Part shown: positions 26,901 to 39,283 of the stretch, one piece after another
Numbering within the stretch: the stretch's first letter is position 1
Layout: each line of letters begins with the position of its first letter
NCBI GenBank assembly: GCA_964482725.1
Contig: CAYZYT010000005.1
Location: 24,133-88,132 of the forward strand
Length of the DNA: 64,000 nt
Direction of reading: 5' to 3'
Source of the DNA: an uncultured bacterium
Lineage (GTDB): Bacteria; Omnitrophota; Omnitrophia; Omnitrophales; Aquincolibacteriaceae
Position numbers and translations under genes: made by a program
Notes under the pieces: generated by a model
Told to the model about the DNA's origin: nothing
Databases searched by the model: none
What the model saw: only the letters and a program-made list of their open reading frames with translations

Positions 26901-29900
26901 GCAGAAAACAGCTCCTTTCCATTTAACCAACACGGACCCATCCTTGGAAATCTGACTTTTCAATCCTGTCTCTGAGACGGCCTTCCACTCCGTATCCCCC
27001 TGAACCACACTTTTGAATTTTTCGCTTTCTTTCAAGAGAGCGGCGGCAAGACGAGCTTCCCTTTCCCGGCGAGCAGCAAGCTTTGCTTCACGAGAGGGCA
27101 CCACTTCCTCCTCCGGAAGAGCCGGCACCGAAGAAACCGCCGGCGCAAGATTTTCCTCTACCGCGGCTTCTTTCTTTGCCTCAACGGGTTTCCCCTGAGA
27201 AAAATCCAGAGGGACATAGCGAGTGGCTTGAAAATCCGTATCCGCGAAGATCAAATACCGGCCGTCAAAGTCAATCAACCGCATCCCCTCCGGCACACGA
27301 ATATCAATCTCCCGCACCTCCTGCCCCGTGAGCAAGTAGGCTTTCCCCATATCGGGGACGACGTAGACTTTACCGCCCGCGGATGAAAATTCCTTGAAAT
27401 AGCCCGAACGCGTCTCCACGCTATCTTCGCCCTTGATTTTTATGGCATCCACGGAGGCAAAACTACCATCCGCATCGATATGGAGTTTCTTAGCAGCCCT
27501 ATCAAGGAAAAGCATGCTTGTATGGTGCATGTTGTATCTAAAAATACTGTTGGTCTGCGGATCCAAAACAACTTGGTCGAATTTATTTTCAGCGTTGGGG
27601 ACGTGCACAAGAAAATAGTCGCTTTCGGCAATATATTTGGCTGGAAGCTCGGTGTCCGGAGAAACCCCGAGCTGATCCGCGAGGTTTTTTGACAATTGAA
27701 TTCTCTGCGTTTCAAAGTTCCAGTCGACGTCACCTTCATAATGCGCAAACGCGCCAGCGTGCGATTCGAAAGTACCCCCGACCAGATGATGCTCCTGAGA
27801 CAAGTTTTTAGACACAAGCACTTTATGAAAAGCTCGTCCTTTACCCGCGGCCATATTGAGCACGGTCATCCGGCCGCCTCTGATATCTCGCTGCGCTTCC
27901 TCCGGGCCGACGCGTCTGTAGCTCTCTTCCCTATCGCCTCGGTAAAAAACAGATATCACTTTCCCGTTGGCATCTTTGGCCGCGATCAATGACGTGGGAA
28001 GGTTTTCTTCGACAAGAGGAACATCATGTATCTCGCTATTGTCCGGCATGATGAGGACGCCCCTTCTCGCCTTCGAAGGAATCAACCGGTTGTACCATTT
28101 CGGATTTCTAGGCTTCAAATGGATCACGTTCCCGATTTCTCTTATCTCCACCCCTTCGCCTTCATCGCGCCATAATTCGAGTCTCGTTTCATTTTCCTGC
28201 GTTTCATTTTCCTGCGTTTCTATATTAGTAATGGCAGCACCCACCTTATTCTTCCAACCTGTCTGCGGCACAGCCACCACATAGCGATTGAGGCGAGATT
28301 TAAGAAATCGAAAGGTCACGGGATCACCGCTTTCCCAAACGGTTTTTCCGGTTCGTGAATCGAAAACCTTGTAAATATCACCGGCTTTCCCAGCCCCTTT
28401 GACTTTGTTTGATATAAACCGGTTATCCGGGGAAAACTCGACGTCACCCTCAAAATCTTCAAGGACCGTTTCGGCCTTGATCTGATCCCCTTCCCGCGTC
28501 AGGGCAAAGACCTTGACAAAATAACGGCCAAACACATCCGCCTGAAATGTCATAGCATGAAATTCTTTTCCGTTTACTTTGTCCTTTCTCAAGAATCGGG
28601 AGCCTGTGATTCTCATGCTGGATGAAACTGGCGTACTGAATTTGTTCAAGCCCAGCGTTGAAAAAGGCATCCTCTTCCCAGTACTAAGATCCATGAGCTC
28701 CAAGGGCGCATTGCCGGAGGACAGGGAGATAAATTCCTGCAGAGCGTCCTGCGGTATGACCCCCATCGCGGAAGGTTGGGCTTGGGTTGCCCCAGCCTGA
28801 ACCGGAACACCCTCCGATTTCTTGGCCGGAGCCTGAGAAACAGGCGCGGCAGGTTTCGAGAAGTCTGAAGGCATCGTCACCAGGAACTTCGCCGCTTGAA
28901 CAGAATCAAGAAGTTGCTGTTCGGCCACCGCCATAGGCTCGAGTTGTTCTTTTTGAGAAACGTGTTGGATCTCGAGATGCGGTTTAGGTTTTGTGATCTC
29001 GTAGTCCGTCACAACTTGTTTGGAGGTAAGGATATTGACCGCTTCAAGAAGGCTCGTGAATTCATATTCTTCCTCGGGAGCTCTCCAGCTCATTAAAGCC
29101 AACTCCAAGAGCCGACGGGTCGCAGGCACATCCGGCAAAGCAATCATCTCCTCGGTTTCAAAAAAGGGAAGATCTTCTGCCGCGAGGATCGCTTTCCTCG
29201 TCATCCGGTAGTCGCGGATCGCCTTAAGCGATTCATCCGTGAACGGCACGATCACGAGCGCTTTCCCGCCGAAGCTCAACCGGACCTTCTTGCCGTCCAA
29301 TACGACACGTGAGGGCAACGGCTCGCCTCCGATCTGTTGGAGGCTCACCACACCGCCCCAGTCGAATAGCGCGGGATCCAGATAAAGAACCGGACGCTCA
29401 CGTCCCTCCTTGTCTCGAGGAACCTGCACTTTCGCGAACGCGCGGTCATGCGGCAAGAAGACATATCCTTTCGAAATCAACTCCTCCCGCAGAGCCGACA
29501 TCGCGTTCTTGGCATAAAGGCGAAGGTCATTAACCGTGGTCGCATAGCCGGGGTTCCCCTGCACAAGCGCTTCCAACCCCACAATGATCGTATTCACGTA
29601 CCGGATCTTCTCTTCCGGTGTCAGCGGATGCTTCGGATCCGTGATGGAGCTGATCAGATACTCAATCGCAGATTTAAACTTCGATTTCCCCTGGAGGTTC
29701 GTCGGTAGCCGCGGCTTATCCCAGGAATCAGGAATGGGGACTGAGGTGCTCAGCTCGATCATGACGCCGGTGTCCGCGGTCGCAGTAGGCTCGAGATCCT
29801 CGGGGACCCGGACCGTGGCCACCGCTCTGCCATTTCTGAGAAACGAGATTTCACCCCGAGGGCGCTTTTCGTCTCCCACCAGTTTAATGGGTACGGTTTT

Positions 29901-32900
29901 AGAGCTTTTTTGAGATTGCCTCGGAACAAACATGAACGCTATGTTGCGTCCGTTCATTCCTTCCCCGTTATCCAAAACCGAGATCGAATGACCGTTGGAA
30001 CGGATCAAAACATCTTTGCCCCGCGCCGCTTCGCGGGAATATCCGCTCGGCCCCGCGGGAACGATCTCGCGTTTGCTTTTAAACCCGTTCACTTCATCGG
30101 GTTTGTTATTGCCATACTGGGTCTGGATCGTCATTCCGGGGACATAGCAAAAGACCCGGTGGATCTCGTTCATCAGCTTTGCCTGAGCCTCTTCCGATAT
30201 CTTCTCGCCGGTCGTGACTCGGACGAGCGTCCCCTTTTTGAGATCGACTCCCGTCTCTCGCGTCGCCATATCCGCACGGATCTTCCGGACCTGGATATAA
30301 CTCTGTCCCTTCGTATCTTGCAAAATAGTCAGTTTGTAAACATTTCCACTTTCTTGGGCCGTGTAAACATCCACGCGATCGCGCCCCGTCCCTTTGAGCC
30401 ATGCGAGGATCTGCTTCACCCCTTTGCCGAATTGGCCCAGGCCGGCGCCCAATGCGTCCAGACTGTTAGCCACCGCTTCGATCAGACCCTGGGTCGGAGC
30501 ATTAGGATTTTGACCATCGATCGCTTTATCCTGGAACCGGGGATCCTCGTAGGTTCCGTTCAGGATCGTATCCAGATCGGCTGCCGTTTGCCCCCGATCA
30601 AGGAGCGCCTCAAGGATCCTGTCATAATCTTCTTTATCGCGGTCCTCCGGCTTCTCAGCGCGGCTGGCGGTAATACCAAAGTGAGCCAGGAGATCCTGCT
30701 TTTCGCTTGGCGTGAAATTCTTCTCGGAGAGACGCGTCATCGCTGCAACATAGTGATCCATATCCGGGCCGTTAAATCCTTCCCGGTCGTTGCGATAGTC
30801 CGTGGCCGCTTGCCTTGTCTTCACTTCCTTAGACGCCGGCCGTCCCTTTTCACTTCGAGCAAGAGTCCGATCCGAAACCCAATTCCAAAACTGACCCCAG
30901 TCGGGCATCGTAATGGATCTCACCTCGGCACGAACGAGGGGGGCTTCCCCCAATCCCTGGCCTCGGACATCGGAACGTTGCATCAGCTCCGGAGGATGGA
31001 TCCTATCGCGATTGCGAAGCGCCGATTCGACCGCCTCACGCGGCACCACCGTGCTGTCCAAGGATATCTGTTCACCCGTCGCAACATGCGCACAGACCAG
31101 CTTAACGGCCTTCATAAGATCTTCGACAGCGGACTCGAGGATCGGCCAGGTCACATCCGTAGACGAAGCGTTGCCCTTTGCGATCGCGGAATGAAGTTTT
31201 TCGATCTTGATTTCAAGGTCAGAAAGTTTGCTCTCAAGGAGATACGCGTCGAAAGCCTCTCCGACCGCTTCCTGAACCAACTCGGCCGGAACGCGCCGCG
31301 ACAGGTCCTCCTCATAGCCCTTTTCGTAAGATTTCATTTTGGAAGTTGCAATGATCTGCGTCCCGCCATAGGGCGCGATAAAAAACGGTCCTTTTTTATC
31401 CCCCATGAATGCTTCCAGGAAATTCCACATGGCGACCACATCGGTACGCATGATTTCCAGTTTCTGCAATTCAGTGACTGAATTCTGCTTCGGGGCGGAG
31501 GTTGGGTGCCACCAAGAGGCATCGACCTCACCAAGGAGTGACATCAATCGGGAATTCAACTCGTGTCGCAATCCCCGTGAAACCATGTGCCGGACCTCGT
31601 CAAGCGTGAGCGATCTCCCATTAACTTTACCGTTTACAATCTCCATGTGGGATATCGTCTCATCCGATGTTACCGGGGATATGATCCGGCCCTCAGAACG
31701 GCTTTGAACACCTAAGTCCTTCGCGAGCTTGCCGTGAGCCTCTACCAGAAATTTTTTCGTTAGCATCCATTCTTTAGGCCATGTTTTTGTGGAATCAAAA
31801 CCCGGAAATTTCGCGAACGGAATATGGACATACACCTCCGTCCCCTTATCCAGATACGCGACAAGAAGTCCTTGGGCTCCATTGTTGCGTCTGCCCGTCA
31901 CATAATTCACGACGTTCTCAAAATCGAACACCGCTCCCGCCTTGGTGACCCGGAGCCCTCCCTGGACCGCGGGCACTTGCGACAGGACAACATCGTATGA
32001 ATTCTTGCGCGACGGATCCCCGTTGTTCTGATTAATTTTCCCGTTGATCTCAAAGTTCTTCTTCATAATTGTGTCGTTGCCCATCACCAGCCGCAATTCG
32101 GAGCGAGGGGCAATCCCGGAGCGGGTTTCGGCGCGTCCCTCCGGAATAACTGCGGATGAAACAATCTTGTCACCCCGTTTGAGCGCTGCCTTCAAATACA
32201 AAGGGGTATAGGTTACTTCCGAGAGAACAATTCCTGGATCTTTAACTGTAAAGTCGTTATACGAAGCAGTCTCTGTTCCGAGCATATTTTGAACCGCAAA
32301 ATCCATCGTCGCAGCATCGGCAAAGATCAAATCCCTGCGTCCTGCCGAATCTGGCCGTTTACTGACCCAAGCATTCGGCGCCATCGGTTTTCCATCCTTA
32401 TCGAATGGAGGCTTAAAACCATATTCCGTCACCAGCTTATCAATCACCGCGGGGATCACCATATTCGGATCGGTTCGATTTGCGTTGGGATAGAGCGCGA
32501 AAAATGCATCCAAAAGCTGCCTCATTAACCCGCGAGGCAAAGAGGAATTGATTATGCATCCACGAATCGCCAGATTTCCTTCCGTCGGGATCCCATACAC
32601 CATCAGATCCGGCATCCTGCTTTCGGGCACGCGAACAAGACTCAACCCCTGACTTCCCTTCGGCAAAGTTTTTGAAACATAAAAAGGATGCTTTGTCCCG
32701 TCAGGCAGCCCAAAAACAACCACTTCCAGATTCCCCTCACGGCCGCCTTTAACCGTTCCATAGGGGTTTTTAATATCTAACGCCTCTACCGCAGACGCTG
32801 CTTGTTCCTCAGCTTTCGAACTGGCGCGTTCCTCGGAAACGACGGCCACCGCTGGTTTTTCCATCACCTCAACCGGCACAACTTCCTTCGGTTCCGGCAG

Positions 32901-35114
32901 CAACGCTGGTGTTTTCATAGAAACAATCGGCCCACTAAACCCATTGGACCGATCAAGAATTTGCGCAAAATTTATAAACGACGGCTTGGTCTGGCCGGCG
33001 CGGTCAAGAAGAGCAGAGACGGACTGAGCGTTGAGATCTTTTTTTGTGATAAGTTGTTTGAGGCCATCGGTAAATACGTTGAGTTGGAATTCAAAGGTTT
33101 TCCAGAGGCGCTCGAGGGAATCTGCTTTGAACTTCTCGAGTTCTTTTCGGACAATATCGAGAATCTCATCCTTGCTGCGCTTGGGGCCCATGGCGGTTGC
33201 CGCTTCGGGCATGCTTTGGAGGACCTCATCAATGTACGGCAGGAATTTTCCGGCGTCGGTAATGCGCCCTTCCTTGGCAAGTTCACGGATCACATTGTCG
33301 CGCCAGACCTTCAAGGTCCTCACGCGATCCGGAATGGGAAGAGCCTCGACCAAGGCCTTTGCAGCATGGCGCATCAGCGCGTCAAAGTAGGTCGTCTTGA
33401 GATAGTCCTTGAACGAAACATCGCCTTTCATGACCTTGGCATAATTCTGACTTCCCGTCAGGGAGGCGATCTTGGGAGTCACGACCGCGTAAGAAACGCC
33501 TTTTTCTTTCAGAATGCGCTCAAGACCCTTGGTGTGGAACCCCCCGGCGACAACGGCGATGGTCTTTTGCTTCGCATCCTTCATCATCGCGTCGATCTTT
33601 GTCATGAACGCCTGGTCACGTTCCAGAGCCGCCTGATAAAATTCCAGCGCAGGCGCGAGGTTCTGCTTAAACGCAGGGTCCGATATCAGACCGAGGTATG
33701 CGTCCGGATCTTTTTGATATTCCGCAAGGGCCTCATGCGTCAGCTCGAGCGTGATCATTTCTTTCAGGAGGAAAAGCTTTTCGTATTGATCCGCGATTTC
33801 ACGCTGAGCCGGAGTCTTGATAAGACTAGCTTCCACTTCGGGAAGAAAACGCTGGAGCTCGTCATAAAGGCGGCTCCCTTTGATCTCGGAAAGAAGCTCC
33901 GCATGCCCGAGGAGCTTTTTGAGGGCCGGAGTCAACTTCACGTTCTTCCCATTTTCGCGTCCCACTTCGACAAGATATTGGAGCATCTGACCGGCGGTGA
34001 TCTGCCCGGTCATAAAAGCCTGATAGCGATTGTAAAAGTTCATCTCGACCTTCACGCCGAGACCCCTCAAATACTTCATCTTGAACTCATCCGCGATCTG
34101 GCGAACCAAAGGCACGAGAGCCTCCTGCTTGCCCGATTTTTCATAGCCGATCGATTCGATCAGACCGGGCAACTCCTGATAACCCGTAGCCTGGGTCGCG
34201 TCATTCTGACCTCTGTGCTTTCTTGCGAAAGCAAGATCAGAGGGAGGAATCTCGGCTTGAGATCCTTCGGCCTTTCCGGCCTCAGTCTGACGGGCAGTAA
34301 AAAGCCCCTTGAAATTCGAGAGGTAGACCAGAAGATCGAGAAGTGAGGCGCGTTCGGTAAGAAAATTCTCACGGGCTTCTTGAAATTCGTTCAGTTTCGG
34401 ATCATAGGCCTTGGCGCGATCGCTATCGAGCTTCCGCTTGAATTCATTCCATCGCTCAAGAAGCGCCGCTTTTTTCTCTTGGGCACGAAGATAAGCAAAA
34501 TAATTTCGCTCATACAAACTCCAATCCTCCATCCCTCGGAAATCGGTGGCCTCTTCTTGCAGTACCGCCGCCATCTCGGGGCCGGAGAGCTCAGCTCGGT
34601 TTTCATAGCCCGCGAGGATCTTGCGTTTCACGATGGAATCTGGAAATGTCCTGAGCAGCGTAGGCTCAAGCCGACCTTTGCCGCCCTCGAGCGCTGCAAG
34701 GCGGACACCGTAGGCTTTTCCAAGATGGCCGAGGATCTTCGAAATGTTTTCCTGGGCATCGATCACAGCATGAGCGTCTTGGATGAGCACGACGAACCGG
34801 CTTTCGCCGGTTCGAGACTGGAGACCCGAGACCGGAGACTGAAGACTCTTATTCTTGGAATTCTTTTGATTTGTTGAGTCGATAGTCTGTGGTCTGTAGT
34901 CTGTTGTCTGCGAAAGTGAAACTTTCGCTATGGTTCCCATCTCCACCGGGATCGAAAGTTTGTCAATCGACAAAACAGACGATGCAATCACATCTGCCGT
35001 GGCAGCGTTCGCAGGCGTGGTCCAGGTGACACTCGTTGCGGTGAAGACAAACGCCACAACAAGCGCCGTGAACCTCATGCCTCGACTGTGATTTTGATCA
35101 CTTCTTATACTCAT
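17925..35114 (-). CDS. giant 5729-aa secreted/membrane multidomain protein: conserved N-terminal module, at least 3 GHKL-type ATPase-like modules, internal HExxH membrane domain
   Basis: Single uninterrupted ORF in the track. Sec-type signal peptide (positive n-region, hydrophobic core, ANA-A cleavage site). Domain landmarks were located by back-translating motifs to the DNA; see the sub-features below. Confidence 0.85.
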   Translation of the reverse strand: MSIRSDQNHSRGMRFTALVVAFVFTATSVTWTTPANAATADVIASSVLSIDKLSIPVEMGTIAKVSLSQTTDYRPQTIDSTNQKNSKNKSLQSPVSGLQSRTGESRFVVLIQDAHAVIDAQENISKILGHLGKAYGVRLAALEGGKGRLEPTLLRTFPDSIVKRKILAGYENRAELSGPEMAAVLQEEATDFRGMEDWSLYERNYFAYLRAQEKKAALLERWNEFKRKLDSDRAKAYDPKLNEFQEARENFLTERASLLDLLVYLSNFKGLFTARQTEAGKAEGSQAEIPPSDLAFARKHRGQNDATQATGYQELPGLIESIGYEKSGKQEALVPLVRQIADEFKMKYLRGLGVKVEMNFYNRYQAFMTGQITAGQMLQYLVEVGRENGKNVKLTPALKKLLGHAELLSEIKGSRLYDELQRFLPEVEASLIKTPAQREIADQYEKLFLLKEMITLELTHEALAEYQKDPDAYLGLISDPAFKQNLAPALEFYQAALERDQAFMTKIDAMMKDAKQKTIAVVAGGFHTKGLERILKEKGVSYAVVTPKIASLTGSQNYAKVMKGDVSFKDYLKTTYFDALMRHAAKALVEALPIPDRVRTLKVWRDNVIRELAKEGRITDAGKFLPYIDEVLQSMPEAATAMGPKRSKDEILDIVRKELEKFKADSLERLWKTFEFQLNVFTDGLKQLITKKDLNAQSVSALLDRAGQTKPSFINFAQILDRSNGFSGPIVSMKTPALLPEPKEVVPVEVMEKPAVAVVSEERASSKAEEQAASAVEALDIKNPYGTVKGGREGNLEVVVFGLPDGTKHPFYVSKTLPKGSQGLSLVRVPESRMPDLMVYGIPTEGNLAIRGCIINSSLPRGLMRQLLDAFFALYPNANRTDPNMVIPAVIDKLVTEYGFKPPFDKDGKPMAPNAWVSKRPDSAGRRDLIFADAATMDFAVQNMLGTETASYNDFTVKDPGIVLSEVTYTPLYLKAALKRGDKIVSSAVIPEGRAETRSGIAPRSELRLVMGNDTIMKKNFEINGKINQNNGDPSRKNSYDVVLSQVPAVQGGLRVTKAGAVFDFENVVNYVTGRRNNGAQGLLVAYLDKGTEVYVHIPFAKFPGFDSTKTWPKEWMLTKKFLVEAHGKLAKDLGVQSRSEGRIISPVTSDETISHMEIVNGKVNGRSLTLDEVRHMVSRGLRHELNSRLMSLLGEVDASWWHPTSAPKQNSVTELQKLEIMRTDVVAMWNFLEAFMGDKKGPFFIAPYGGTQIIATSKMKSYEKGYEEDLSRRVPAELVQEAVGEAFDAYLLESKLSDLEIKIEKLHSAIAKGNASSTDVTWPILESAVEDLMKAVKLVCAHVATGEQISLDSTVVPREAVESALRNRDRIHPPELMQRSDVRGQGLGEAPLVRAEVRSITMPDWGQFWNWVSDRTLARSEKGRPASKEVKTRQAATDYRNDREGFNGPDMDHYVAAMTRLSEKNFTPSEKQDLLAHFGITASRAEKPEDRDKEDYDRILEALLDRGQTAADLDTILNGTYEDPRFQDKAIDGQNPNAPTQGLIEAVANSLDALGAGLGQFGKGVKQILAWLKGTGRDRVDVYTAQESGNVYKLTILQDTKGQSYIQVRKIRADMATRETGVDLKKGTLVRVTTGEKISEEAQAKLMNEIHRVFCYVPGMTIQTQYGNNKPDEVNGFKSKREIVPAGPSGYSREAARGKDVLIRSNGHSISVLDNGEGMNGRNIAFMFVPRQSQKSSKTVPIKLVGDEKRPRGEISFLRNGRAVATVRVPEDLEPTATADTGVMIELSTSVPIPDSWDKPRLPTNLQGKSKFKSAIEYLISSITDPKHPLTPEEKIRYVNTIIVGLEALVQGNPGYATTVNDLRLYAKNAMSALREELISKGYVFLPHDRAFAKVQVPRDKEGRERPVLYLDPALFDWGGVVSLQQIGGEPLPSRVVLDGKKVRLSFGGKALVIVPFTDESLKAIRDYRMTRKAILAAEDLPFFETEEMIALPDVPATRRLLELALMSWRAPEEEYEFTSLLEAVNILTSKQVVTDYEITKPKPHLEIQHVSQKEQLEPMAVAEQQLLDSVQAAKFLVTMPSDFSKPAAPVSQAPAKKSEGVPVQAGATQAQPSAMGVIPQDALQEFISLSSGNAPLELMDLSTGKRMPFSTLGLNKFSTPVSSSMRITGSRFLRKDKVNGKEFHAMTFQADVFGRYFVKVFALTREGDQIKAETVLEDFEGDVEFSPDNRFISNKVKGAGKAGDIYKVFDSRTGKTVWESGDPVTFRFLKSRLNRYVVAVPQTGWKNKVGAAITNIETQENETQENETRLELWRDEGEGVEIREIGNVIHLKPRNPKWYNRLIPSKARRGVLIMPDNSEIHDVPLVEENLPTSLIAAKDANGKVISVFYRGDREESYRRVGPEEAQRDIRGGRMTVLNMAAGKGRAFHKVLVSKNLSQEHHLVGGTFESHAGAFAHYEGDVDWNFETQRIQLSKNLADQLGVSPDTELPAKYIAESDYFLVHVPNAENKFDQVVLDPQTNSIFRYNMHHTSMLFLDRAAKKLHIDADGSFASVDAIKIKGEDSVETRSGYFKEFSSAGGKVYVVPDMGKAYLLTGQEVREIDIRVPEGMRLIDFDGRYLIFADTDFQATRYVPLDFSQGKPVEAKKEAAVEENLAPAVSSVPALPEEEVVPSREAKLAARREREARLAAALLKESEKFKSVVQGDTEWKAVSETGLKSQISKDGSVLVKWKGAVFCISENAGEFTLTRFKEDQLSQGMPVAAGGMHKIATDGKYFTVLYLQGFQYESSPEVLPAWGVSIKITPKSDQTWDFEAHGGEVAVKEAAAAAAQPALRELSEKDRILKEENRRPQFRATAPSEIPGGFVWGREWSEALMTPELMGRLEALPQGVFEYSSGVRGYYDGHSFFIISRKRGGGDSYAVHQTLMDKQTDIYGAFVGFSDNGLQLLFKFPKGSESQVPLGAPLSYADLQKLIAEAGPATPEAKPARDERDQVWAGTFIKGRESAPALRDRLSGDFRKAWTQGYWDTVPQRYRADVAAVLQPLITGIYEAEENAVRQKFLVTRAGESADYESEEMPFVRFAARLELLKNGLAQFLASDEAQIAMQKYETGRSYLANLFRGLFELASDSRDISLPEVTPDLFNGLGMGWSVKEEWQRDQNNFSKLQALIRSGGEQGERLAPDQAMRIVTYLSRLSARSREANTILMEQLARLESHPQYKTRMLSSLADLSEEQFQAYWDNPHDPKFALGDAVSYLEFLSARLDPVRVAERFVPAGEDFIPEGQKIGISQITQADAVREQKGRKVITPEETRDVIASGKLPKRDEKLETSNRLAVDRHESGAAVREIAQNSKDAMKTMGLSRGELEVDFYIQKGEDGESEFVEQTLDDSGGAEDPLALVIEKSTKADDLLRALTGMYGSGGKGPLYQDADRVEILTRRGGKAYYFEIKIERSDSGEVTDISLVKFRKITDLRPVNEVMKKDGVMTRRIKNVRNTIPELAQRISRRNWLIFTGLAVDEQFQIYFRNGEAARTPLALASETLSETEWRDPYATEPSDRVQGKFGILSVPATVRQVVDNAGLRVASLDESSRYVALIPPSLRYLIKQLNLVIRIPLPQVEGRGAFKREDIYLPWIQRYVAIEFYKALARKTLLIPASKDEPQFVFHGFPHDWLTDNRNGQIMRNLMFQYRVAALLRFLGILVFQKAYTIVHAANQINRGRYGRVSVNDLELFSGDAGTSDLDSVKRTEDMVKFVSLLRVPSPNEPNTQESLAGQMRAVSRAALLGSSVYTFLERIKSRLTGKSVSEVSNLPHIQEILSSNRSVTWAGLAVSILLGVLVIILWNVSGSAIGVAVGAAQSVLQGEFQREFWIGLTKLGVWALPLIFVFKRVLQTKPKTDDEKRLVDEVLQFAKPFGIKRVVFWPGWMGAAGLLIGNVFILNKDVVQELRHSGIDEKGYINKRSNLLAHETAHLLETVSAIQKGRLGRLLGKIAPWIFFAMVHDTGGFSHEPVGEFADAIKTAAAVPLLQFKGDVSAVQPEVLRSEIRKVSLKGVMLGVLAAVTLALGVGGTAAYVSAKMWRSVLYKVTQIIEVSQTYIGYVLHDSEKNALAPLKDIDQAYRRYARGKASLPEFIYIQEFVLSPDGLLDYVNAHEITAGESKVPTVEALLQRSDLKKLYEAYQNYHETPEAFEEMRQNPMTTPLILKVIDTMRARYPVFSFRFERVPFEVWKDRQSLGDIPWRGNPGYVLQGVQESGAGLRTEWYDQLTSWLRVRGANMWERELPFADLLAQIRAQAPDAFIAHLRGASHAIYDSLLANASKAYQSSELQIPMIQDEVARDIQDGKTVSQSKMAAFVLELQLDYVLAPLLNDLKENYSVFVNEIGPKLRSMILEEERSGLKDKNQRSLERIMIEGFRGEQAKSEELEAKKSVLVLQAEEVIAQSLSGAKLPAESVAAYNTAEKAYWKAYGDLQDCWINLAKSEGLISKGSAKKFIKRNRAIWDSPESKAGQLDSGVDAKVRNARMMLRSENRMNVTVSRGRADLTAAIRERTGSKAFQEFDLANPALIPAGAFADAVRAGSVLRLKTQGLSGKNKRFKELLPVLIRIGQEFDDAGLTLNGDGRYVVQELLKNALEHGNQLNLDMPVFLYVKLDGSKSKAIEFRTYDLAVKDQASSLDLGYAHDSWGKQGIGIDRIKARGWAYDRQPVPGGAEARVARSEGRSIAARYGQIRNSKKQTFDEIMISLHNQQKDSTVPQDLWAVDPRTGAESKRIIGQDPDYAKKLESMNLLQLDEELKLYTTGKGPRLESVSGFVIPASIKDPIERLKFFVDHLSEDGELPGVRGQRLQHYLDLGKAVKGILGMSIKIQDKKQIEKFEIFLREICIRWSEPLARSAARLETQRATRAELRAEPKISYALSAPDKQAIDKLFMDDEIQRMLRALPPQTTVYFVRDGNQTQMLRVKEDNWMVNLTLERFLAGKNRPEEVATGVDAWTPGVTLDPEGFIIVLRDDWRKESDAVNLWRLQHEISHILRVELVKQSDVPDEGVVKRMKEFMAIERLVRALQDHEVVSFQLGQPQPLIRSAEAYLKNSQDLADPGTSAPSTLIRAASYAMRYFFAQHAFEKAFPEREKTLRSELGKKYNLSDSEVAKTHAILDKTLIPLLENGDWIQEAPLMSAYRQFVDQMKQSFPEQQAPPAAEKRQENRRLSAETVRTKPSLGQGADSEVYQVEDAAYKIYRDISLKLLEFYQAVTSAVKTKLDQKEIGSVQIGGVDHKVVIEVNPILDVYEMEGKRLSRSPLIDGIWLRDLVAGNLDKVPQAGDLRLVCNAIAAPDRKVLGSIKTMLAGQSNEIMTSPIKINAEEYAVTGITLESSENVMLKLDPDGTIRLIVTDIASAIKYVGDSRPVEPASAKVRAELRVKLGGLLEVNPGNVAHGIQSAGSVEKYRAELRVRAVTQQAKMEKLIETRIVQFGKELDQYTTLQKVVSYIRSPALDQRLQELLGEFGDTTEFASRIRSRAVFNEESLSFDRLADNASQLNNAKIARDQAMLDVVAAGLVMNGKEPSFVLLMDRPGDGIAEEVLEMIKMLKPSRLMVYSGPGEKPFGRAWDKVASVMSLRNKNAVSRAVRSSSDLVVSFWTQDRGMDNLGIYSILAEVGRIADPRLRELALTAVRIAILRFATLEKETQNKILAKPALIRGYLEQFGIPAFIGFSSKGLVFNLERLVEEYTARQSVDQAA
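20900..21270 (-). other. giant protein 1: GHKL (histidine-kinase/anti-sigma-type) ATPase module 3
   Basis: N-box VVQELLKNALEHGN (21209..21270) and downstream G2-like GKQGIGIDRIKARG. Confidence 0.5.
22890..23690 (-). other. giant protein 1: multi-pass membrane segment carrying HExxH (LLAHETAHLLE)
   Basis: Hydrophobic helices run from VTWAGLAVSILLGVLVIILW (23641..23685) to MLGVLAAVTLALGVGGTAAYV (22895..22985). The HETAH motif is at about 23183..23240. Confidence 0.5.
24700..25110 (-). other. giant protein 1: GHKL-like ATPase module 2
   Basis: AVREIAQNSKDAMKTMG (around 25060..25110), with downstream DDSGGA and GSGGKG glycine-rich boxes. Confidence 0.4.
29850..30500 (-). other. giant protein 1: GHKL/Hsp90-like ATPase module 1
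   Basis: N-box LIEAVANSLDALGAG (30421..30500) and G1-box ISVLDNGEGMNGRNI (29913..29980). Confidence 0.55.
33400..35114 (-). other. giant protein 1: N-terminal module shared with giant protein 2 (VVLIQDAH ... VVAGGFHTKG ... GVSYAVVTPKI); tentatively TraB/GumN/TIKI-like
   Basis: Motifs map to 34765..34800 (LIQDAH) and 33510..33560 (AGGFH). Giant protein 2 has IVLIQDAH / LVYGGFHANS / GISYVVISPRI at equivalent positions. Confidence 0.5.
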
Positions 35115-35292
35115 ATTTTATGTGCCTTCTTTCATTCAAAAAGTTGCCACCTAGTTCTATCCTAAACACGACCTAACTCATTCAACCGTCCAATATTCCA
35201 TTCAATTTACTCCAGGTTCTTTCTCTACTAAAAATATGCCATCCATTCATAGTTATTACAAGGATTTAAGAGCATTTATTTGATACATTTTG

Positions 35293-35337
35293 GCTATATT
35301 TTGCTATAGGAAGCTATAATTGCTATACATTGCTATG
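35293..35337. promoter_or_regulatory. helically phased GCTAT(A/G) array in the AT-rich region upstream of giant gene 1
   Basis: GCTATA at 35293, 35303, 35313 and 35322, and GCTATG at 35332 (spacing 10, 10, 9, 10 bp). The array lies 180-225 bp upstream of the ATG at 35114. Confidence 0.3.
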
Positions 35338-35561
35338 CAGCAAAAGTGAAAGTCGTGGCCTTACAGAAAACGAGGGCGCTACTGAATTTGGGGCAGGTAT
35401 TTTAAAAGGAGCTCAAACTGACTTATTTTTTTCGCAAGACGCGGACAAAAGTAACGACCACCATAATGAGGATCACAGACCAGCTCAACGACATAAAGAT
35501 CCATCCAGAAAGTTTCACGGGGCTTTACCCTCTCTACAAACAGGCGGCATTTGCGGGGTCA

Positions 35562-37133
35562 TTAGGGCACCCGATGCTGAATGACGTGCTTCCTCTGCCA
35601 GGCAATGCGCACCAGCAGTATCATAAGGGCACCCGCGCCCACCAGCAGGAACCGGGCAAACCAAATGTAGGGATAGTTCTCTTTCAAAACGCCCTTCATC
35701 ATCAGAACATTCCAGCCGTCCTGATACATCCAGAATCCAAGTAAAACGACAAGGTAAGTCAGGGTCACATATTTCATGATCGGCAGTATCCATTTCGGAA
35801 GCTTGATATCCGAGCCGGACATGATCTCCTTCCAAGCATTCTCGGCCCCAAAAACCCATATAAAGAGGATGAGCTCAATGATCGCGAAAACGACAAGCCC
35901 GACCGTGCCGATCCAAAAATCAATCTCGTTCAGAAAACCGTACTTCAGAAAAAAGATCACGGGGAGCGTAAAAAAGAATGTCATCCCCCCGACGATCAGC
36001 GCCGTGGCCTTGCGCGACAGCTTGAACTCCTCCTGAAAAAACGCCATGAGAGGCTGAGCCAGCGCGACCGAGGAAGTGATCCCGGCCAGAAAAAGCAGAA
36101 AGAACCAGATCGTTCCGAATAAAGGGCCGAACGCCATTTTCTGGAAGATAAGCGGCAAGGCAAAAAACCCGAGGTCAAAGGCTCCTCCAGCGGCGATCTG
36201 CTGGGTTTGAGCCAAACCGAAGAACGCGACGACCACAGGGATCGCGATCGACCCTCCCAGGATCACCTCGCAAAACTCGTTGGTCGAACACGTTGCCAAA
36301 CCCGAAAGAACAACGTCGTCTTTTTCTTTCAAATAGCTCGCATAGGTTTGGATCGCCCCCACGCCGATACTCAAGGTAAAAAAGACCTGCCCTGTCGCGG
36401 CAAGCCAGACCTTGCTTTGCTTGAGGATACTAAAATCCGGATTCCAGATGAAACCAAAACCGTTCAAGATGTTGCGCTCCGGAAAATTCGGGTCGGGCGT
36501 TCCGATGCACAGGACCTTAATGACAAGGATGATCCCACAAAGGCAGATCAGCGGCATGGCGACCTTGGCCAGCAACTCGATCCCTTTGGTGACCCCTCGG
36601 GAGATGATCCCCATCACGCAAAAATGCGTGATGCAGAAAAAAAGAAAAGCCGTCCAGATATTTGCAAAATAGAAATTAGAGGTCTTCCCCTGATAGGCGC
36701 CTAAAAAATCGACCATCCCCCGATAATCGGGCACCGCAAGATATTTCCCCGTGAACGAGAAGACGCTGTAGGCAAGCGTCCAAGAGACAATATAGTTGTA
36801 ATAGACCACGAGAATGAACGGCAACGCGAGCCCGAGCGCGCCAACATACTTCGCCAGCGGATGCTTCCAGAGATAATGAAACATCCCGGGGGTCGTCCCA
36901 TGCCCATATTTACCCCCGAAGCGGCCGATCCCCCATTCGATCCATACCAGCGGAATACCCAGCACGATCAGTGCGACGAAATAAGGGATCATGAACGCAC
37001 CGCCCCCGTTGCTAGCACACTGAACGGGAAAGCGGAGAAAATTACCAAGGCCCACGGCATTCGCGGCCATGGCGAGGATGAGACCCATCCGGGTCCCCCA
37101 TCGTTCCCGAGGTTTGGGGAGATGTTGGTTCAT
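35562..37133 (-). CDS. sodium-dependent transporter, neurotransmitter:sodium symporter (NSS/SNF) family
   Basis: MGLILAMAANAVGLGNFLRFP N-terminal NSS signature and a 12-TM layout. Confidence 0.85.
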   Translation of the reverse strand: MNQHLPKPRERWGTRMGLILAMAANAVGLGNFLRFPVQCASNGGGAFMIPYFVALIVLGIPLVWIEWGIGRFGGKYGHGTTPGMFHYLWKHPLAKYVGALGLALPFILVVYYNYIVSWTLAYSVFSFTGKYLAVPDYRGMVDFLGAYQGKTSNFYFANIWTAFLFFCITHFCVMGIISRGVTKGIELLAKVAMPLICLCGIILVIKVLCIGTPDPNFPERNILNGFGFIWNPDFSILKQSKVWLAATGQVFFTLSIGVGAIQTYASYLKEKDDVVLSGLATCSTNEFCEVILGGSIAIPVVVAFFGLAQTQQIAAGGAFDLGFFALPLIFQKMAFGPLFGTIWFFLLFLAGITSSVALAQPLMAFFQEEFKLSRKATALIVGGMTFFFTLPVIFFLKYGFLNEIDFWIGTVGLVVFAIIELILFIWVFGAENAWKEIMSGSDIKLPKWILPIMKYVTLTYLVVLLGFWMYQDGWNVLMMKGVLKENYPYIWFARFLLVGAGALMILLVRIAWQRKHVIQHRVP

Positions 37134-37207
37134 ATCGAGAGTCTGAGGGAGTGAAGAAATTCAAACACAACGAAAGCTCTAAAAAACATCTTGAGAACTA
37201 CCCGCGC

Positions 37208-37420
37208 CTACCGAACCTTCCGCACATGATATTTATTTTTGATGTTCGACTCAAAAAACCGGCCGTGGGAGGGGGCCGTCAGAAATTCCTGATAGACGGT
37301 CTCGGGGACATTCTCATACTGGTAGATCGAACCGACAATAAACTCCACCTGAAGCATATTACGTTTATGCTCATACCCAATCCATTCAATCTCCCGCGAT
37401 AAGACCATGTTATTAATCAT
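37208..37420 (-). CDS. KTSC-domain protein (start trimmed to MINNMV...)
   Basis: The 70-aa core (IEWIGYEHKRNMLQVEFIVGSIYQYENVPETVYQEFLTAPSHGRFFESNIKNKY) matches the KTSC-domain pattern. AAGGGGGA lies upstream of the ATG at 37420. Confidence 0.5.
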   Translation of the reverse strand: MINNMVLSREIEWIGYEHKRNMLQVEFIVGSIYQYENVPETVYQEFLTAPSHGRFFESNIKNKYHVRKVR

Positions 37421-37692
37421 TGTGTCCCCCTTTGTTGCTAGTATTAACGGACAAAATGAAAAGAATCTTGAATTTTTTCCGCATTTTTTCATAAAATTTT
37501 TCAAGATACACCCCTCCCCTTGCATAAAAATCTGAAACATTGCCAAAATTCAAATTCTGTAAACTCAAAACCGGGCTTAGACCCTTGGGATGTCGGGTTT
37601 GAGATGGGTTTCGAACTTCGAGTTTCGACATTCGCATTTTAAAAGTCCGCACACCCCTCGCCTTGAAATAAAGACGACCGACATACCGGCCT

Positions 37693-37908
37693 TCAGGAAT
37701 TCGGGTGTCTTCGAGGATTTTCAAGCAAAACGCGTATCTCTGCATCAAGCGCTCCGAATTCTTTGGCGATCGAAATGAAATCGGCGCAGTCTTCGTACCG
37801 CTCCGAGATCAATGCCTCTCTGAGATAGATCAGCGCGGTCAGCTTCACAGGATCCCGAGCTCTCAGCCTGTACCTCACTATGCCGATCGTGCTTATTGTC
37901 GGGTTCAT
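37693..37908 (-). CDS. hypothetical 71-aa protein
   Basis: GGAGGAG-N5-ATG at 37908. No family recognised. Confidence 0.3.
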   Translation of the reverse strand: MNPTISTIGIVRYRLRARDPVKLTALIYLREALISERYEDCADFISIAKEFGALDAEIRVLLENPRRHPNS

Positions 37909-38035
37909 GTTCACTCCTCCTCTTGTTTTTTGGTTTTTGTTCACTGCTCTTGCTTCTATATGATGCCGGGGACATCCATCCGCCACACAATGCGGCGGAT
38001 TCGTCCTGCTCTTCCTTGAGTACGGGCTGCGCAGG

Positions 38036-38079
38036 CGAAAAAAAAAGCCCATGACCGCTATTGCGATCATGGGCTTTTG
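38036..38079. terminator. bidirectional intrinsic terminator-like hairpin
   Basis: AAAAAAAA-GCCCATGA-ccgctattgcg-ATCATGGGC-TTTTG: a perfect 8-9 bp GC-containing stem flanked by an A-run and a T-run. Confidence 0.5.
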
Positions 38080-38409
38080 AATGATTCCGTTTTATTCTAC
38101 TACCGACCTACGCTAGATCCTCCCGAGCGTCCCTCAAAAGCCCACGGCCACAAACCGCATGGCGACCCTTCGTGGACAGAAACCACGCCTGCGCCATGAC
38201 GATTGTCATGGGATATTTCGCTAAGCTATGGATCTGATTGAGGTTCCGCTTTTTCATAATTTTCCTTTGTTTGAATCTACAAAGCGAATGTAACAGATTT
38301 CAGGGATTTGTCAATCCTTCGACGCCTCCGCCAGGGAGACGGAGATTGCTCAGACTTGACCCTGAGCGTTTTTTGTCGAAGGGGTCAATCGCTCCCAATG
38401 TGAGCTCCT

Positions 38410-39222
38410 TTAATAGGCCCTGATCCGACGTTTGAATTCGTTCCAGGGAAAAAATTTTCCGGGGCATTCCGTCGCAGCGCCAGGCACATCGCGATGCCCG
38501 ACAACGTTCTGATCGGGAATGTTATAAAAGCTCTGAAGGGTCACAACCAAAAAAACCAACGAGTCATACATCTTATCGGGAAGACCCGTCTCGCTATAAT
38601 TGCCCACGACACATATCCCGATCGCTTTCTTGTTCCAATCCCCCTGCTTGGTATGCGCCCCATCCGATTGCTTCAGCCAGCGAGGACCGACTTCGATCTG
38701 CCCCATCGCCTTTCCGCGGGTGCCGTTATCGATCAGAAAATCATATCCCATTCCGTTATCCCATCCTCGCTGAAGATGAAGTTGGTCGATTTTGAAGGCG
38801 CTGCCTTGGTCGGTTGCCGTGTGATGGATCACGACATGCGTCCACCTCGTGGTCGGATAAAGCGGGATGTTTGCCCGAGGGCCCCGCGTATTCGGGATCA
38901 AAAGCTTCATCCCCTTTTTGAGCTGCGTCTTGCTCGTTAAATGATTGACGCGCATGATCGTTGCCATATCCACACTGTAGATCGTTGAGATGCGCCAGAG
39001 AGTCTCGTAGGGTCCAACTTCATGATAGATGTCGTGCAGAGCTCCCGACGGAGCCGGAAGCACCGTCGTGATGGCAGAGACCGGTCGCGGAGACAGATAC
39101 GTCGTCGTACGACTCGGAGAGGATGAAGCGCAGCCAGAAAGAAAGCTCGCACCTGCTAAAAGGACGATCACCGCCCAGGCTGGCATGCTCGGAGATCTGC
39201 TTGCGGCTATTTGTGGAAACAC
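38410..39222 (-). CDS. N-acetylmuramoyl-L-alanine amidase (amidase_2/PGRP fold) with LysM domain, secreted
   Basis: Signal peptide, LysM (YHEVGPYETLWRISTIYSVDMATIMRVNHL...GMKLLIP), then amidase_2 blocks (VVIHHTAT..., GYDFLID, GHRDV...ECPG). Confidence 0.82.
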   Translation of the reverse strand: MFPQIAASRSPSMPAWAVIVLLAGASFLSGCASSSPSRTTTYLSPRPVSAITTVLPAPSGALHDIYHEVGPYETLWRISTIYSVDMATIMRVNHLTSKTQLKKGMKLLIPNTRGPRANIPLYPTTRWTHVVIHHTATDQGSAFKIDQLHLQRGWDNGMGYDFLIDNGTRGKAMGQIEVGPRWLKQSDGAHTKQGDWNKKAIGICVVGNYSETGLPDKMYDSLVFLVVTLQSFYNIPDQNVVGHRDVPGAATECPGKFFPWNEFKRRIRAY

Positions 39223-39283
39223 TTATGAGACCTTCATAGCTATTTATTTACGCCCAAAAACCCCTGAGCTTGAGCCTGATTTT

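What the first reader, a model, noticed from the sequence alone, without database searches (positions are those of the whole stretch)
33400..35114. The two giant proteins are paralogous at their N-termini, sharing a roughly 560-aa module and an identical 19-nt DNA stretch
Both giants start with an anchor or signal and then share VVLIQDAH / IVLIQDAH, a long helical region, and AVVAGGFHTKG..GVSYAVVTPKI / LVYGGFHANS..GISYVVISPRI. The second copy is at 62000..63669. The DNA around the LIQDAH codons is identical for 19 nt (34761..34779 versus 63343..63361). The two His-containing motifs, hydrophobic-x-x-D-A-H and G-G-F-H, resemble the paired GTxH / GxxH motifs of the TraB/GumN/TIKI/erythromycin-esterase superfamily. 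The second halves of the two giants differ completely, GHKL modules in one and phosphotransfer enzymes in the other. This suggests a family of modular giant proteins built on a common surface-exposed head.
Basis: seen in the sequence. Interest (0 to 1): 0.75.

Follow-up and report, generated by a model that had tools for sequence, protein, structure and literature searches.

The report
Shared TIKI-like head of giant proteins
This head opens thousands of modular multi-enzyme giant proteins, so it offers a handle on how these puzzling proteins are built and perhaps cut up.

Summary
G1 (17925..35114, minus strand, 5729 aa) and G2 (49342..63669, minus strand, 4775 aa) share a colinear N-terminal module at about 25% identity. 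BLASTP gives E 1e-12 and 1e-9. A family HMM built without either protein hits G2 at E 4.5e-66. The 19-nt identity exists, but at 34774..34792 and 63347..63365. It is five identical codons in the most conserved motif, not evidence of recent exchange.

The "family of modular giants" is real and large. There are 9,844 cluster representatives, the head is N-terminal in all 150 best hits, the named sources are nearly all Omnitrophota, and genomes carry several copies.

New here:
- Many members, G1 included, also share a C-terminal tail.
- A syntenic orthologue of G1 is only 1,580 aa.
- Modules are separated by an R-[SA]-E-x-R motif, 14-fold enriched, which is a candidate processing site.

Surface exposure, catalysis and the GHKL claim for G1 remain unproven.

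The parts
17925..35114 (-). G1, giant ORF of 5729 aa: head, about 4,670 aa of unannotatable cargo, then the conserved tail
   Evidence: ORF list and translation. No Pfam, NCBIfam or PDB-sequence match anywhere.
35001..35114 (-). G1 aa 1-38: basic n-region, a hydrophobic stretch and TPANA|A. Signal-peptide-like or signal-anchor N-terminus.
   Evidence: Sequence. AF2 predicts helix 11-29. 103 of 145 family heads have a hydrophobic 15-mer starting near residue 11.
32949..35111 (-). G1 head domain (aa 2-722) as delimited by the family HMM
   Evidence: HMM built without G1 or G2: E 4.8e-264, aa 2-722.
34770..34778 (-). G1 D113-A114-H115, the first His motif, at the end of strand 107-113
   Evidence: A114 and H115 are invariant and D113 is 95% conserved in 145 heads. 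Strand from the AF2 model.
34686..34688 (-). G1 E143, at the end of strand 139-142 and 28 residues after H115
   Evidence: Invariant in 145 heads. The spacing equals Bcr135 H85-E113 and RRSP H3902-E3930.
34527..34529 (-). G1 E196 of the G-x-E-D-W-x-L-Y motif after strand 191-194
   Evidence: E196 and Y201 are invariant and G194 is 99% conserved.
33570..34523 (-). G1 aa 198-515: all-helical insertion between the N- and C-terminal halves of the alpha/beta core
   Evidence: AF2 secondary structure. Contains conserved Q365, G413, E419 and E457.
33615..33620 (-). G1 R499-D500 in the helix that precedes the last motif, 28 residues before H527
   Evidence: R499 is invariant and D500 is 97% conserved. 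RRSP R4001 is essential and lies 29 residues before H4030.
33534..33545 (-). G1 G524-G525-F526-H527, the second His motif (GxxH), at the end of strand 518-524
   Evidence: G524, G525 and H527 are invariant. Weak TraB_PrgY_gumN match covers it.
17928..18932 (-). G1 aa 5395-5729: conserved C-terminal tail domain ending ...QAA-COOH
49342..63669 (-). G2, giant ORF of 4775 aa: head, M50-like TM block, GT4, duplicated APH kinases, NAGPA, cytidylate kinase, uridine kinase. No tail domain.
   Evidence: Identical to database protein P0137, from an NCBI contig of 161,004 bp.
62050..63633 (-). G2 head domain (aa 13-540), a divergent member with two G2-specific low-complexity insertions
   Evidence: HMM without G1 or G2: E 4.5e-66 in three colinear pieces. 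Alignment.
63343..63351 (-). G2 D107-A108-H109
63259..63261 (-). G2 E137, 28 residues after H109
62167..62178 (-). G2 G498-G499-F500-H501
34774..34792 (-). Copy 1 of the 19-nt identical word (corrected coordinates)
63347..63365 (-). Copy 2 of the 19-nt identical word (corrected coordinates)
61792..61806 (-). G2 RSELR at aa 622, the first module-boundary motif after the head. The others are at aa 1304, 1810, 2275, 2909, 3348, 4048 and 4551 (nt 59746-59760, 58228-58242, 56833-56847, 54931-54945, 53614-53628, 51514-51528, 50005-50019).
   Evidence: All eight lie between Pfam domains. They flank the internal duplications.
18885..18899 (-). G1 RAELR at aa 5406, the motif at the start of the tail. 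The others are at aa 994, 1004, 1139, 1380, 1395, 4037, 4521, 4710, 4897 and 5438.
   Evidence: In 27 of 38 tails a motif lies within -10..+13 residues of the tail start.

Best explanation
**What it is (shown).** The two N-termini are anciently diverged copies (about 25% identity) of one domain. This domain is the constant 'head' of a very large, essentially Omnitrophota-specific family of modular proteins of 1 to about 8 kaa.

**Anatomy of the head (shown).**
- A signal-peptide-like N-terminus and a short conserved strand (I-P-x-E-x-G).
- An alpha/beta core of the TIKI/TraB/ChaN/erythromycin-esterase type.
- The core carries five conserved residue groups in this order: Q-D-A-H at the end of beta1, E 28 residues later at the end of beta2, G-x-E at the end of beta3, an R-D helix, and G-G-F-H 28 residues after the Arg at the end of the next strand.
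- A helical insertion of about 300 residues splits the core where Ere enzymes carry their lid.

**Likely function (inferred).**
- The head is a hydrolase, a peptidase or an esterase. It would use the His-Glu water-activating pair proposed for the superfamily.
- It is placed outside the cytoplasmic membrane by its signal sequence. This is the topology of TIKI1/2 and PrgY.

**Architecture behind the head (shown).**
- Variable enzyme cargo follows the head. Cargo units are separated by a short R-[SA]-E-x-R motif.
- In many members, G1 included, the cargo is closed by a conserved tail of about 340 aa.
- Cargo is gained, lost and duplicated between the constant ends. The syntenic orthologue of G1 in a related genome is only 1,580 aa.

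**Not shown.** Catalysis, the substrate and the location of the head.
For: **Homology of the two heads.** BLASTP E 1e-12 and 1e-9, colinear. An independent HMM hits G2 at E 4.5e-66.

**Family size and position of the head.**
- 9,844 representatives at E<=1e-3 and 6,691 at E<=1e-30.
- In the 150 listed hits the head lies at the N-terminus: the best-matched stretch begins at residue 80 or earlier, except in a few fragments and in P0139, whose best-scoring stretch is its second.
- Lengths range up to 7,722 aa.

**Taxonomy and copy number.**
- 433 confirmed loci in GTDB species genomes. Most of the 80 kept are labelled Omnitrophota/Omnitrophica; the rest are labelled 'uncultured bacterium', except L053 (Planctomycetales).
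- Up to 6 loci fall in one genome.

**Fold.**
- The AF2 model has pLDDT 76 and pTM 0.67.
- As a contrast, the tail domain run the same way gives a heterogeneous mix of Rossmann, HAD, CARF and E1 hits at similar Z.

**Motifs.**
- A114, H115, E143, E196, Y201, Y493, R499, G524, G525, H527 and P547 are invariant in 145 heads that are 19-79% identical to G1.
- The TIKI superfamily is defined by a parallel beta-sheet core plus 2His/2Glu at strand ends. Examples are Bcr135 H85-E113 and RRSP E3900-x-H3902, E3930, R4001 and H4030 (PMC6254334).
- Here the equivalents are D113-x-H115, +28 to E143, and R499 +28 to H527.

**Sub-threshold sequence signals, all in one superfamily.**
- Of 26 insert-deleted cores, 7 hit ChaN PF04187, 3 hit TraB PF01963, 2 hit Erythro_esteras PF05139 and 2 hit DUF5694.
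- Of 19 full heads, 4 hit TraB.

**Head-cargo-tail architecture.**
- The tail sits at the C-terminus of 41 head-bearing proteins (exactly at it in 35), with cargo lengths from 55 aa upwards.
- P0014 (1,580 aa) has a head 47% identical and a tail 33% identical to G1. It sits between the LysM-amidase/Tal-PGI genes and the CitMHS/PFOR genes, exactly as G1 does.

**Motif at module boundaries.**
Against: - No statistically significant sequence or profile link to any TIKI-superfamily family. The best Pfam score is 15.5 bits against a cut-off of 26.8. hhalign against an E. coli YbaP (TraB) profile gives probability <=5%. A PDB profile search finds nothing relevant.
- Foldseek finds no match at E<=0.001.
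- The model rests on only 19 sequences.
- I could not obtain a residue-level superposition, so the equivalence of catalytic residues rests on motif order, spacing and strand position.
- The first motif is D-A-H rather than G-T-x-H or E-x-H.
- ChaN and PMT show that members of this fold can be non-enzymatic.
- Export of the head is inferred from hydropathy only. With the four TM candidates I detect, it would also put ATP-dependent cargo outside the cell, which is awkward.
Confidence: 0.7

Rival explanations
1. The head has the TIKI-type fold but is not an enzyme. It would be a binding or anchoring module, such as a ChaN-like cofactor/haem binder or an inactive scaffold like the PMT C2 domain, that tethers or organises the giant protein at the membrane.
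Against: H115, E143, R499 and H527 are strictly invariant and D113 is 95% conserved over 145 sequences down to 19% identity. They have the same spacing as proven catalytic residues. That pattern is typical of an active site or a metal site rather than a scaffold. PMT, the inactive member, has lost these residues.
Confidence: 0.17
2. The resemblance to TIKI/TraB/Ere is only a generic three-layer alpha/beta similarity. The head would then be an unrelated family of unknown fold class.
Confidence: 0.1
3. The two heads are similar because of recent duplication or gene conversion between the two giant genes, as hinted by the 19-nt identity.
For: The 19-nt exact word is the longest shared by the two genes and is longer than any of 300 codon shuffles. 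Five identical codons have P of about 0.009.
Against: Protein identity is only about 25%, with large indels. G1's head is 72-74% identical to heads in other genomes, while G2's nearest listed relatives are also only 23-28% identical over the head. No second long shared word exists. The word lies on the family's most conserved peptide.
Confidence: 0.03

Closest known systems
TIKI superfamily sensu Sanchez-Pulido & Ponting: TIKI1/2, TraB/PrgY/GumN (PF01963), ChaN (PF04187), erythromycin esterases EreA/B/C and Bcr135/136 (PF05139), RRSP, PMT, HopBA1
   Same: The head shares these features:
- A parallel beta-sheet core flanked by helices.
- His at the end of beta1, Glu 28 residues later at the end of beta2, and an Arg helix about 28 residues before a GxxH at the end of a later strand.
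- A helical elaboration between the two halves, as in Ere enzymes.

As in TIKI1/2 and PrgY (my own knowledge of those proteins), the domain follows a signal sequence and precedes TM segments.
   Different: - No family model reaches threshold.
- The first motif is Q-D-A-H instead of G-T-x-H or G-E-x-x-H.
- The helical insertion is about 300 aa, and there is a further conserved extension of about 150 aa (W604-R605-D606).
- The head is always the N-terminal module of multi-thousand-residue multi-enzyme proteins.
RRSP effector of MARTX toxins (Vibrio vulnificus)
   Different: In MARTX toxins the TIKI-fold unit is one cargo effector. Processing is done by a separate cysteine protease domain (my own knowledge). 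Here the TIKI-like unit is the invariant N-terminal module, and the cargo is metabolic enzymes.
Omnitrophota giant proteins: Archaeovorins, Dockerin-type and 'multi-enzyme metabolic cluster' proteins (West-Roberts 2023; Nielsen & Lui 2026; Seymour 2023)
   Same: - Same phylum.
- Signal peptide plus TM architecture.
- Many unrelated enzyme domains tiled in one polypeptide. GT1, methyltransferases, kinases and NUDIX are among the recurrent cargo.
- The same open question of post-translational cleavage.
   Different: - Those studies treat proteins of >=10-30 kaa. [quoted passage not shown]
- Neither paper mentions TraB, TIKI, GumN or erythromycin esterase, and Nielsen & Lui mention no motif or cleavage at all. 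West-Roberts state that cleavage points are unknown.
- The proteins here are 1-8 kaa.
Viral and other polyproteins with a cis-acting protease and short recurrent cleavage motifs
   Same: A constant protease-like domain plus a short, strongly over-represented peptide (R-[SA]-E-x-R) placed at domain-sized intervals, with a median of 318 aa, between modules.
   Different: Cleavage is not shown here. Embedded HExxH modules (G2 aa 1037, M50-like; G1 aa 3962 and 5018) are alternative proteases.

Membership tests
TIKI superfamily (fold level) | [quoted passage not shown] The closest solved structures are superfamily members. | tested here: met
TIKI superfamily (active site) | 2His/2Glu catalytic set at strand ends: E-x-H, Glu about 28 residues later, and a second His in GxxH. 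An Arg precedes the second His. | tested here: met
   H115, E143, R499 and H527 are invariant in 145 heads. The first acidic residue is D113 (95%) instead of Glu. Spacings of 28 and 28 compare with 28 and 29 in Bcr135 and RRSP. Spatial clustering in the model could not be checked.
TIKI superfamily (sequence level) | A significant profile match to at least one member family | tested here: not met
   The best scores are TraB at 15.5 bits (cut-off 26.8), ChaN at E 0.0028 and Ere at E 0.0043, all below threshold. hhalign against the YbaP family gives probability <=5%. PDB profile searches are negative.
TraB/PrgY/GumN (PF01963) | G-T/S-x-H first motif and G-x-x-H second motif. Score above the Pfam gathering threshold. 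| tested here: not met
   The first motif is Q-D-A-H in 95% or more of members. The second motif, G-G-F-H, fits. The score is below threshold.
ChaN / Cofac_haem_bdg (PF04187) | Score above the gathering threshold; haem binding | tested here: not met
   7 of 26 cores hit it, with a best E of 0.0028, below the 27.7-bit cut-off. Haem binding is not testable here.
Erythromycin esterase (PF05139) | Score above the gathering threshold; macrolide esterase activity | tested here: not met
TIKI superfamily (function) | Hydrolysis of a peptide or ester bond that depends on the His-Glu pair | not testable with these tools
   Needs biochemistry.
Omnitrophota 'multi-enzyme' giant proteins (Nielsen & Lui 2026) | One polypeptide tiled by many distinct enzyme families, with a signal peptide and/or TM helices | tested here: met
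   G2 carries GT1, two APH units, NAGPA, cytidylate kinase, PRK and an M50-like block, plus an N-terminal hydrophobic segment and TM candidates. G1 has no annotatable domains.
Omnitrophota 'multi-enzyme' giant proteins (Nielsen & Lui 2026) | Length >= 10,000 aa, the catalogue's cut-off | tested here: not met
   G1 is 5,729 aa and G2 is 4,775 aa. The longest of the 150 best head-bearing hits is 7,722 aa.

The most novel reading that the evidence does not exclude
The head is the cis-acting processing peptidase of a bacterial polyprotein system. After export or insertion, the TIKI-like head, using H115, E143 and H527, would cut its own polypeptide at the R-[SA]-E-x-R boundaries. This would release or rearrange the enzyme modules that lie between the constant head and tail. 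Omnitrophota would then use thousands of self-processing polyproteins as a way to co-express and co-localise enzyme sets. The motif would give the missing cleavage points for the phylum's giant proteins.
Probability: 0.15. Interest if true: 0.9.

Novelty: new variant of a known kind. Interest (0 to 1): 0.66.

Why it matters
Giant proteins are the signature oddity of Omnitrophota. The literature I could read says three things about them:
- Their N-terminal regions mostly lack identifiable domains.
- Their cleavage points are unknown.
- Whether they act as one chain or are cut up is an open question.

This work supplies three concrete handles:
- A single conserved head with an invariant hydrolase-like site, found in about 10,000 cluster representatives.
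- A conserved tail that shows the cargo is inserted between two constant ends. One orthologous locus holds a 1,580-aa protein in one genome and a 5,729-aa protein in another.
- A short motif that marks module boundaries.

Together these make the processing question testable. The tests are peptide assays with the head, and non-tryptic metaproteomics looking for termini at the motif. The motif also gives a rational way to chop such proteins into units for structure prediction.

The head would also add a very large, highly diverged family to the TIKI/TraB/Ere superfamily.

Tried and rejected
- **Profile against PDB sequences.** Tried with the full head and with an insert-deleted core. Both returned only helical-repeat noise (CTPR/TPR designs, NLRP4F).
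- **Foldseek against PDB**. No match at E<=0.001. The long helical insertion dominates the alignment.
- **afdb50 library.** Unavailable.
- **hhalign of head profiles against an E. coli YbaP (TraB) family profile**. I tried the full head, the N half, the C half and the concatenated core. Probability was <=5%. The only local alignment pairs the head's L-E-G-G with YbaP's E-L-E-G-A. The YbaP alignment was shallow (Neff 2.3) because my third homologue search returned only enterobacterial orthologues of 59% identity or more.
- **Tail domain in G2.** Not found. HMM E is 0.05 at non-terminal positions and hhalign probability is 0.2%. G2 does end in ...TAA like the tails.
- **Third head or second tail elsewhere in the window.** A six-frame HMM scan found none.
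- **DNA-level meaning of the 19-mer and of the RSExR motif.** Rejected, because codons vary between sites and between genomes.
- **GHKL modules in G1.** Not detectable with Pfam, NCBIfam or PDB sequence searches.
- **Exact-sequence look-up of G2's contig**. It failed, although the protein is in the collection.
- **'Head-only' proteins such as P0006 (700 aa).** Not accepted as standalone, because the gene lies 113 nt from a contig end.

Full report
**1. What is in the window.**

The minus strand carries two very long ORFs:
- G1 at 17925..35114, 5729 aa.
- G2 at 49342..63669, 4775 aa.

They lie among ordinary housekeeping genes: PFOR, a CitMHS transporter, an SNF symporter, a LysM-amidase, transaldolase-PGI, HflX, MiaA, ArgRS and NadE. 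GC content is an even 0.50-0.55. The best named relatives of G1's N-terminus are hypothetical proteins of Candidatus Omnitrophota MAGs. G2 is identical to a database protein from a 161-kb NCBI contig.

**2. Checking the observation.**

The quoted peptides are present.

The similarity of the two N-termini is real:
- BLASTP of the first 800 residues gives two colinear HSPs at E 1e-12 and 1e-9, about 25% identity.
- They remain the only significant similarity when the whole proteins are compared.
- One worry was that my first profile contained G2 itself. I therefore built an HMM from 143 other heads. It hits G2 at E 4.5e-66 over aa 13-540 and G1 at E 4.8e-264 over aa 2-722.
- The shared module is about 540 aa in G2. 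G1 and most relatives carry a further conserved extension of about 150 aa that G2 lacks.

The 19-nt identity is real but the coordinates need correcting:
- It lies at 34774..34792 and 63347..63365.
- It is five identical codons for V-L-I-Q-D plus flanking bases. From the genes' own codon usage this has P of about 0.009.
- It sits on the family's most conserved peptide, which other genomes encode with varied codons.
- I see no sign of recent exchange. G1's head is 72-74% identical to heads in other genomes but only 25% identical to G2's.

**3. The family.**

A profile search of 1.84 billion cluster representatives found 9,844 proteins at E<=1e-3 and 6,691 at E<=1e-30. Among the 150 listed:
- The head lies at the N-terminus. 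The best-matched stretch begins at residue 80 or earlier in all but a few fragments and P0139, whose best-scoring stretch is its second.
- The proteins are long, with a median near 2.7 kaa and a maximum of 7.7 kaa.

A pattern scan of one genome per GTDB species confirmed 433 loci. Most of the 80 loci kept are labelled Omnitrophota or Omnitrophica. The rest are labelled only 'uncultured bacterium', apart from one labelled Planctomycetales. Up to six loci occur in one genome.

**4. What the head is.**

Direct sequence searches are almost blank:
- Pfam gives only a 13-15 bit TraB_PrgY_gumN match.
- NCBIfam gives one sub-threshold, irrelevant hit (E 0.06) and PDB sequences give only chance-level matches.

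The structure prediction points to the TIKI superfamily:
- An AF2 model of G1 aa 1-600 has pLDDT 76 and pTM 0.67. It shows a small parallel-sheet alpha/beta core (strands 107-113, 139-142, 191-194, 518-524, 541-547) interrupted by an all-helical block at aa 198-515.
- These are exactly the proteins listed as TIKI-superfamily structures in the RRSP structure paper (PMC6254334).
- The tail domain, also a generic alpha/beta fold, gives a mixed list of Rossmann, HAD, CARF and E1 folds at similar Z when run the same way. The concentration of one superfamily among the head's hits is therefore informative.

The conserved residues fit the superfamily's active site:
- Over 145 heads (19-79% identical to G1) the invariant residues are A114, H115, E143, E196, Y201, Y493, R499, G524, G525, H527 and P547. 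Q112 and D113 are 95-96% conserved.
- They sit at strand ends in the model.
- They reproduce the superfamily's 2His/2Glu arrangement. D-x-H matches E3900-x-H3902 of RRSP. The Glu lies exactly 28 residues after the His, as in Bcr135 H85-E113 and RRSP H3902-E3930. The Arg lies 28 residues before the second His, compared with 29 for RRSP R4001-H4030.

Removing the helical insertion from 26 diverse heads and scanning each against Pfam gives weak hits. These fall on ChaN (7), TraB (3), Erythro_esteras (2) and DUF5694 (2).

Against this, several tests are negative:
- Nothing passes a curated threshold.
- hhalign against a (shallow) YbaP family profile is negative.
- Foldseek is negative.
- I could not inspect a residue-level superposition.

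My reading is that this is a new, highly diverged family of the TIKI/TraB/ChaN/Ere superfamily. Fold and motif evidence support this; sequence statistics do not.

**5. Location.**

The N-terminus has a basic n-region and a hydrophobic stretch. G1 also has an A-x-A-like site (TPANA|A). 103 of 145 heads have such a hydrophobic segment starting near residue 11. By the positive-inside rule the head would be extracytoplasmic. TIKI1/2 and PrgY have this topology (my own knowledge).

This is an inference only. My crude hydropathy scan finds four further TM candidates in each protein, at G1 aa 3681-4066 and G2 aa 890-1108. It cannot decide on which side the ATP-dependent cargo lies.

**6. The rest of the architecture.** This goes beyond the finding but bears on it.

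(a) *A conserved tail.*
- G1's last 335 residues form a conserved domain. A full-length match lies within 9 residues of the C-terminus in 41 head-bearing proteins, and exactly at it in 35 (E 1e-44 to 1e-98).
- The distance between head and tail ranges from 55 aa (P0103, 964 aa) to more than 6,000 aa.
- Tails end in x-A-A-COOH. G2 lacks the tail domain but also ends ...TAA.

(b) *A short orthologue at the same locus.* P0014 is a 1,580-aa protein made of head, NUDIX and tail. Its head is 47% identical and its tail 33% identical to G1. It lies between LysM-amidase/Tal-PGI on one side and CitMHS/PFOR on the other, the same neighbourhood as G1. At one orthologous locus the cargo therefore differs by about 4,000 residues.

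(c) *A module-boundary motif, R-[SA]-[ED]-x-R (Glu in 98% of sites).*
- It occurs 11 times in G1 and 8 times in G2. Shuffles give a mean of 0.5-0.7 and a maximum of 4.
- It occurs 748 times in 506,811 family residues, against 53 expected.
- It does not occur at all in 6,991 residues of the window's housekeeping proteins.
- It is nearly excluded from heads: 7 sites in 95,914 residues.
- Sites are spaced at a median of 318 aa.
- A site lies within -10..+13 residues of the tail start in 27 of 38 tails.
- It is flanked by small residues upstream and acidic residues downstream.
- It is encoded by varied codons.
- In G2 all eight sites fall between Pfam domains. They also bound the internal duplications. 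The APH unit 2525-2908 ends one residue before RSEVR at 2909, and its copy 3355-3738 starts three residues after RSEMR at 3348-3352. Unit 624-885 starts inside RSELR at 622, and its copy starts ten residues after RSEVR at 2275.

**7. Mechanism.**

*Shown:*
- The heads are homologous.
- The fold class and an invariant active-site-like set of residues.
- A constant head, and often a constant tail, with variable cargo between.
- A boundary motif between cargo modules.

*Inferred, at about 0.5 given the fold:* the head is an active hydrolase that uses the His-Glu pair proposed for Ere and TIKI enzymes.

*Speculative, at about 0.15:* the head cuts its own chain at the boundary motif, making these proteins self-processing polyproteins.
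- Alternative proteases exist in cis: an M50-like HEAGH block in G2 (aa 1037) and HExxH peptides in G1 (aa 3962 and 5018).
- The motif could instead be a structural linker or a docking site.

**8. Relation to the literature.**

Three papers on Omnitrophota giant proteins were checked: Seymour 2023, West-Roberts 2023 and Nielsen & Lui 2026.
- They describe SP+TM multi-enzyme giants and raise the cleavage question.
- West-Roberts report N-terminal regions without identifiable domains, apart from C39/S8 peptidases.
- They state that cleavage points are unknown.
- In the two papers whose text I searched (West-Roberts, Nielsen & Lui), TraB, TIKI, GumN and erythromycin esterase are not mentioned.
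- A full-text search for Omnitrophota together with TIKI, TraB, ChaN or Ere listed no such paper among its ten top-ranked results.

The giants themselves are known. The shared TIKI-like head, the head-cargo-tail frame and the boundary motif appear to be undescribed in the library I could search.

**9. Verdict.**

- TIKI membership holds at the fold and motif level only.
- Surface exposure is inferred, not shown.
- GHKL modules in G1 are unverified.

Novelty: a new variant of a known kind. Interest: 0.66.

Noticed in passing
G2 aa 622, 1304, 1810, 2275, 2909, 3348, 4048, 4551 (nt 61792-61806 ... 50005-50019); G1 aa 994, 1004, 1139, 1380, 1395, 4037, 4521, 4710, 4897, 5406, 5438 (nt 32121-32135 ... 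18789-18803): The pentapeptide R-[SA]-E-x-R is about 14-fold over-represented in the family (748 observed against 53 expected). It is nearly absent from heads and absent from the window's housekeeping proteins. Sites are spaced about 318 aa apart and lie at module boundaries and at the start of the tail. It is a candidate processing or linker motif.
   Followed up: yes
window 17928..18932 (-), G1 aa 5395-5729: A conserved C-terminal tail domain of about 340 aa. A full-length match lies within 9 residues of the C-terminus of 41 head-bearing proteins and ends x-A-A-COOH. G2 lacks the domain but also ends ...FATAA. The fold is a generic Rossmann-like alpha/beta and its function is unknown.
   Followed up: yes
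G1 locus (window 12234..42157) compared with the contigs carrying P0014: Conserved synteny: Tal-PGI, LysM-amidase..., head-tail gene, CitMHS, small ORF, PFOR. The head-tail gene is 1,580 aa (NUDIX cargo) in the other genome and 5,729 aa here.
   Followed up: partly
window 59740..59946 and 53593..53775 (-), G2 aa 1242-1310 and 3299-3359: Two copies (50-67% identical) of a linker cassette. Each is made of about 20-aa tandem units: RSEM[HP]LN[SP]VDSSTxRDS[LR]EA and variants such as RSEMPLTPVAPKTSRDSREA. Each cassette ends in RSEMR, just before a new module.
   Followed up: partly
window 61015..61800 vs 55969..56805, and 54946..56097 vs 52456..53607 (-): Internal duplications in G2. Aa 624-885 matches 2289-2567 (33% identical). 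The APH-kinase unit 2525-2908 matches 3355-3738 (55% identical). Both pairs are bounded by the RSExR motif.
   Followed up: partly
window 17925..35114 (-), whole G1: 5,729 residues with no Pfam hit (E<=0.01), no NCBIfam hit (E<=0.1) and no PDB-sequence hit (E<=0.1).
   Followed up: partly
G2 aa 1037 (nt 60547-60561); G1 aa 3962 (nt 23217-23231) and aa 5018 (nt 20049-20063): HExxH metalloprotease-type peptides. The G2 one lies in a weak Peptidase_M50 match among TM segments. The G1 one at aa 3962 lies between TM candidates. These are possible cis-acting proteases that rival the head as the processing enzyme.
   Followed up: no
L082 / L083: In another Omnitrophota contig a 7,467-aa gene (methyltransferase, Peptidase_M48, ABC1) is followed 100 nt later by a second head-bearing gene in the same orientation. 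This suggests that head genes can sit in tandem. The apparent 700-aa 'head-only' product ends 113 nt from the contig end and may be truncated.
   Followed up: no
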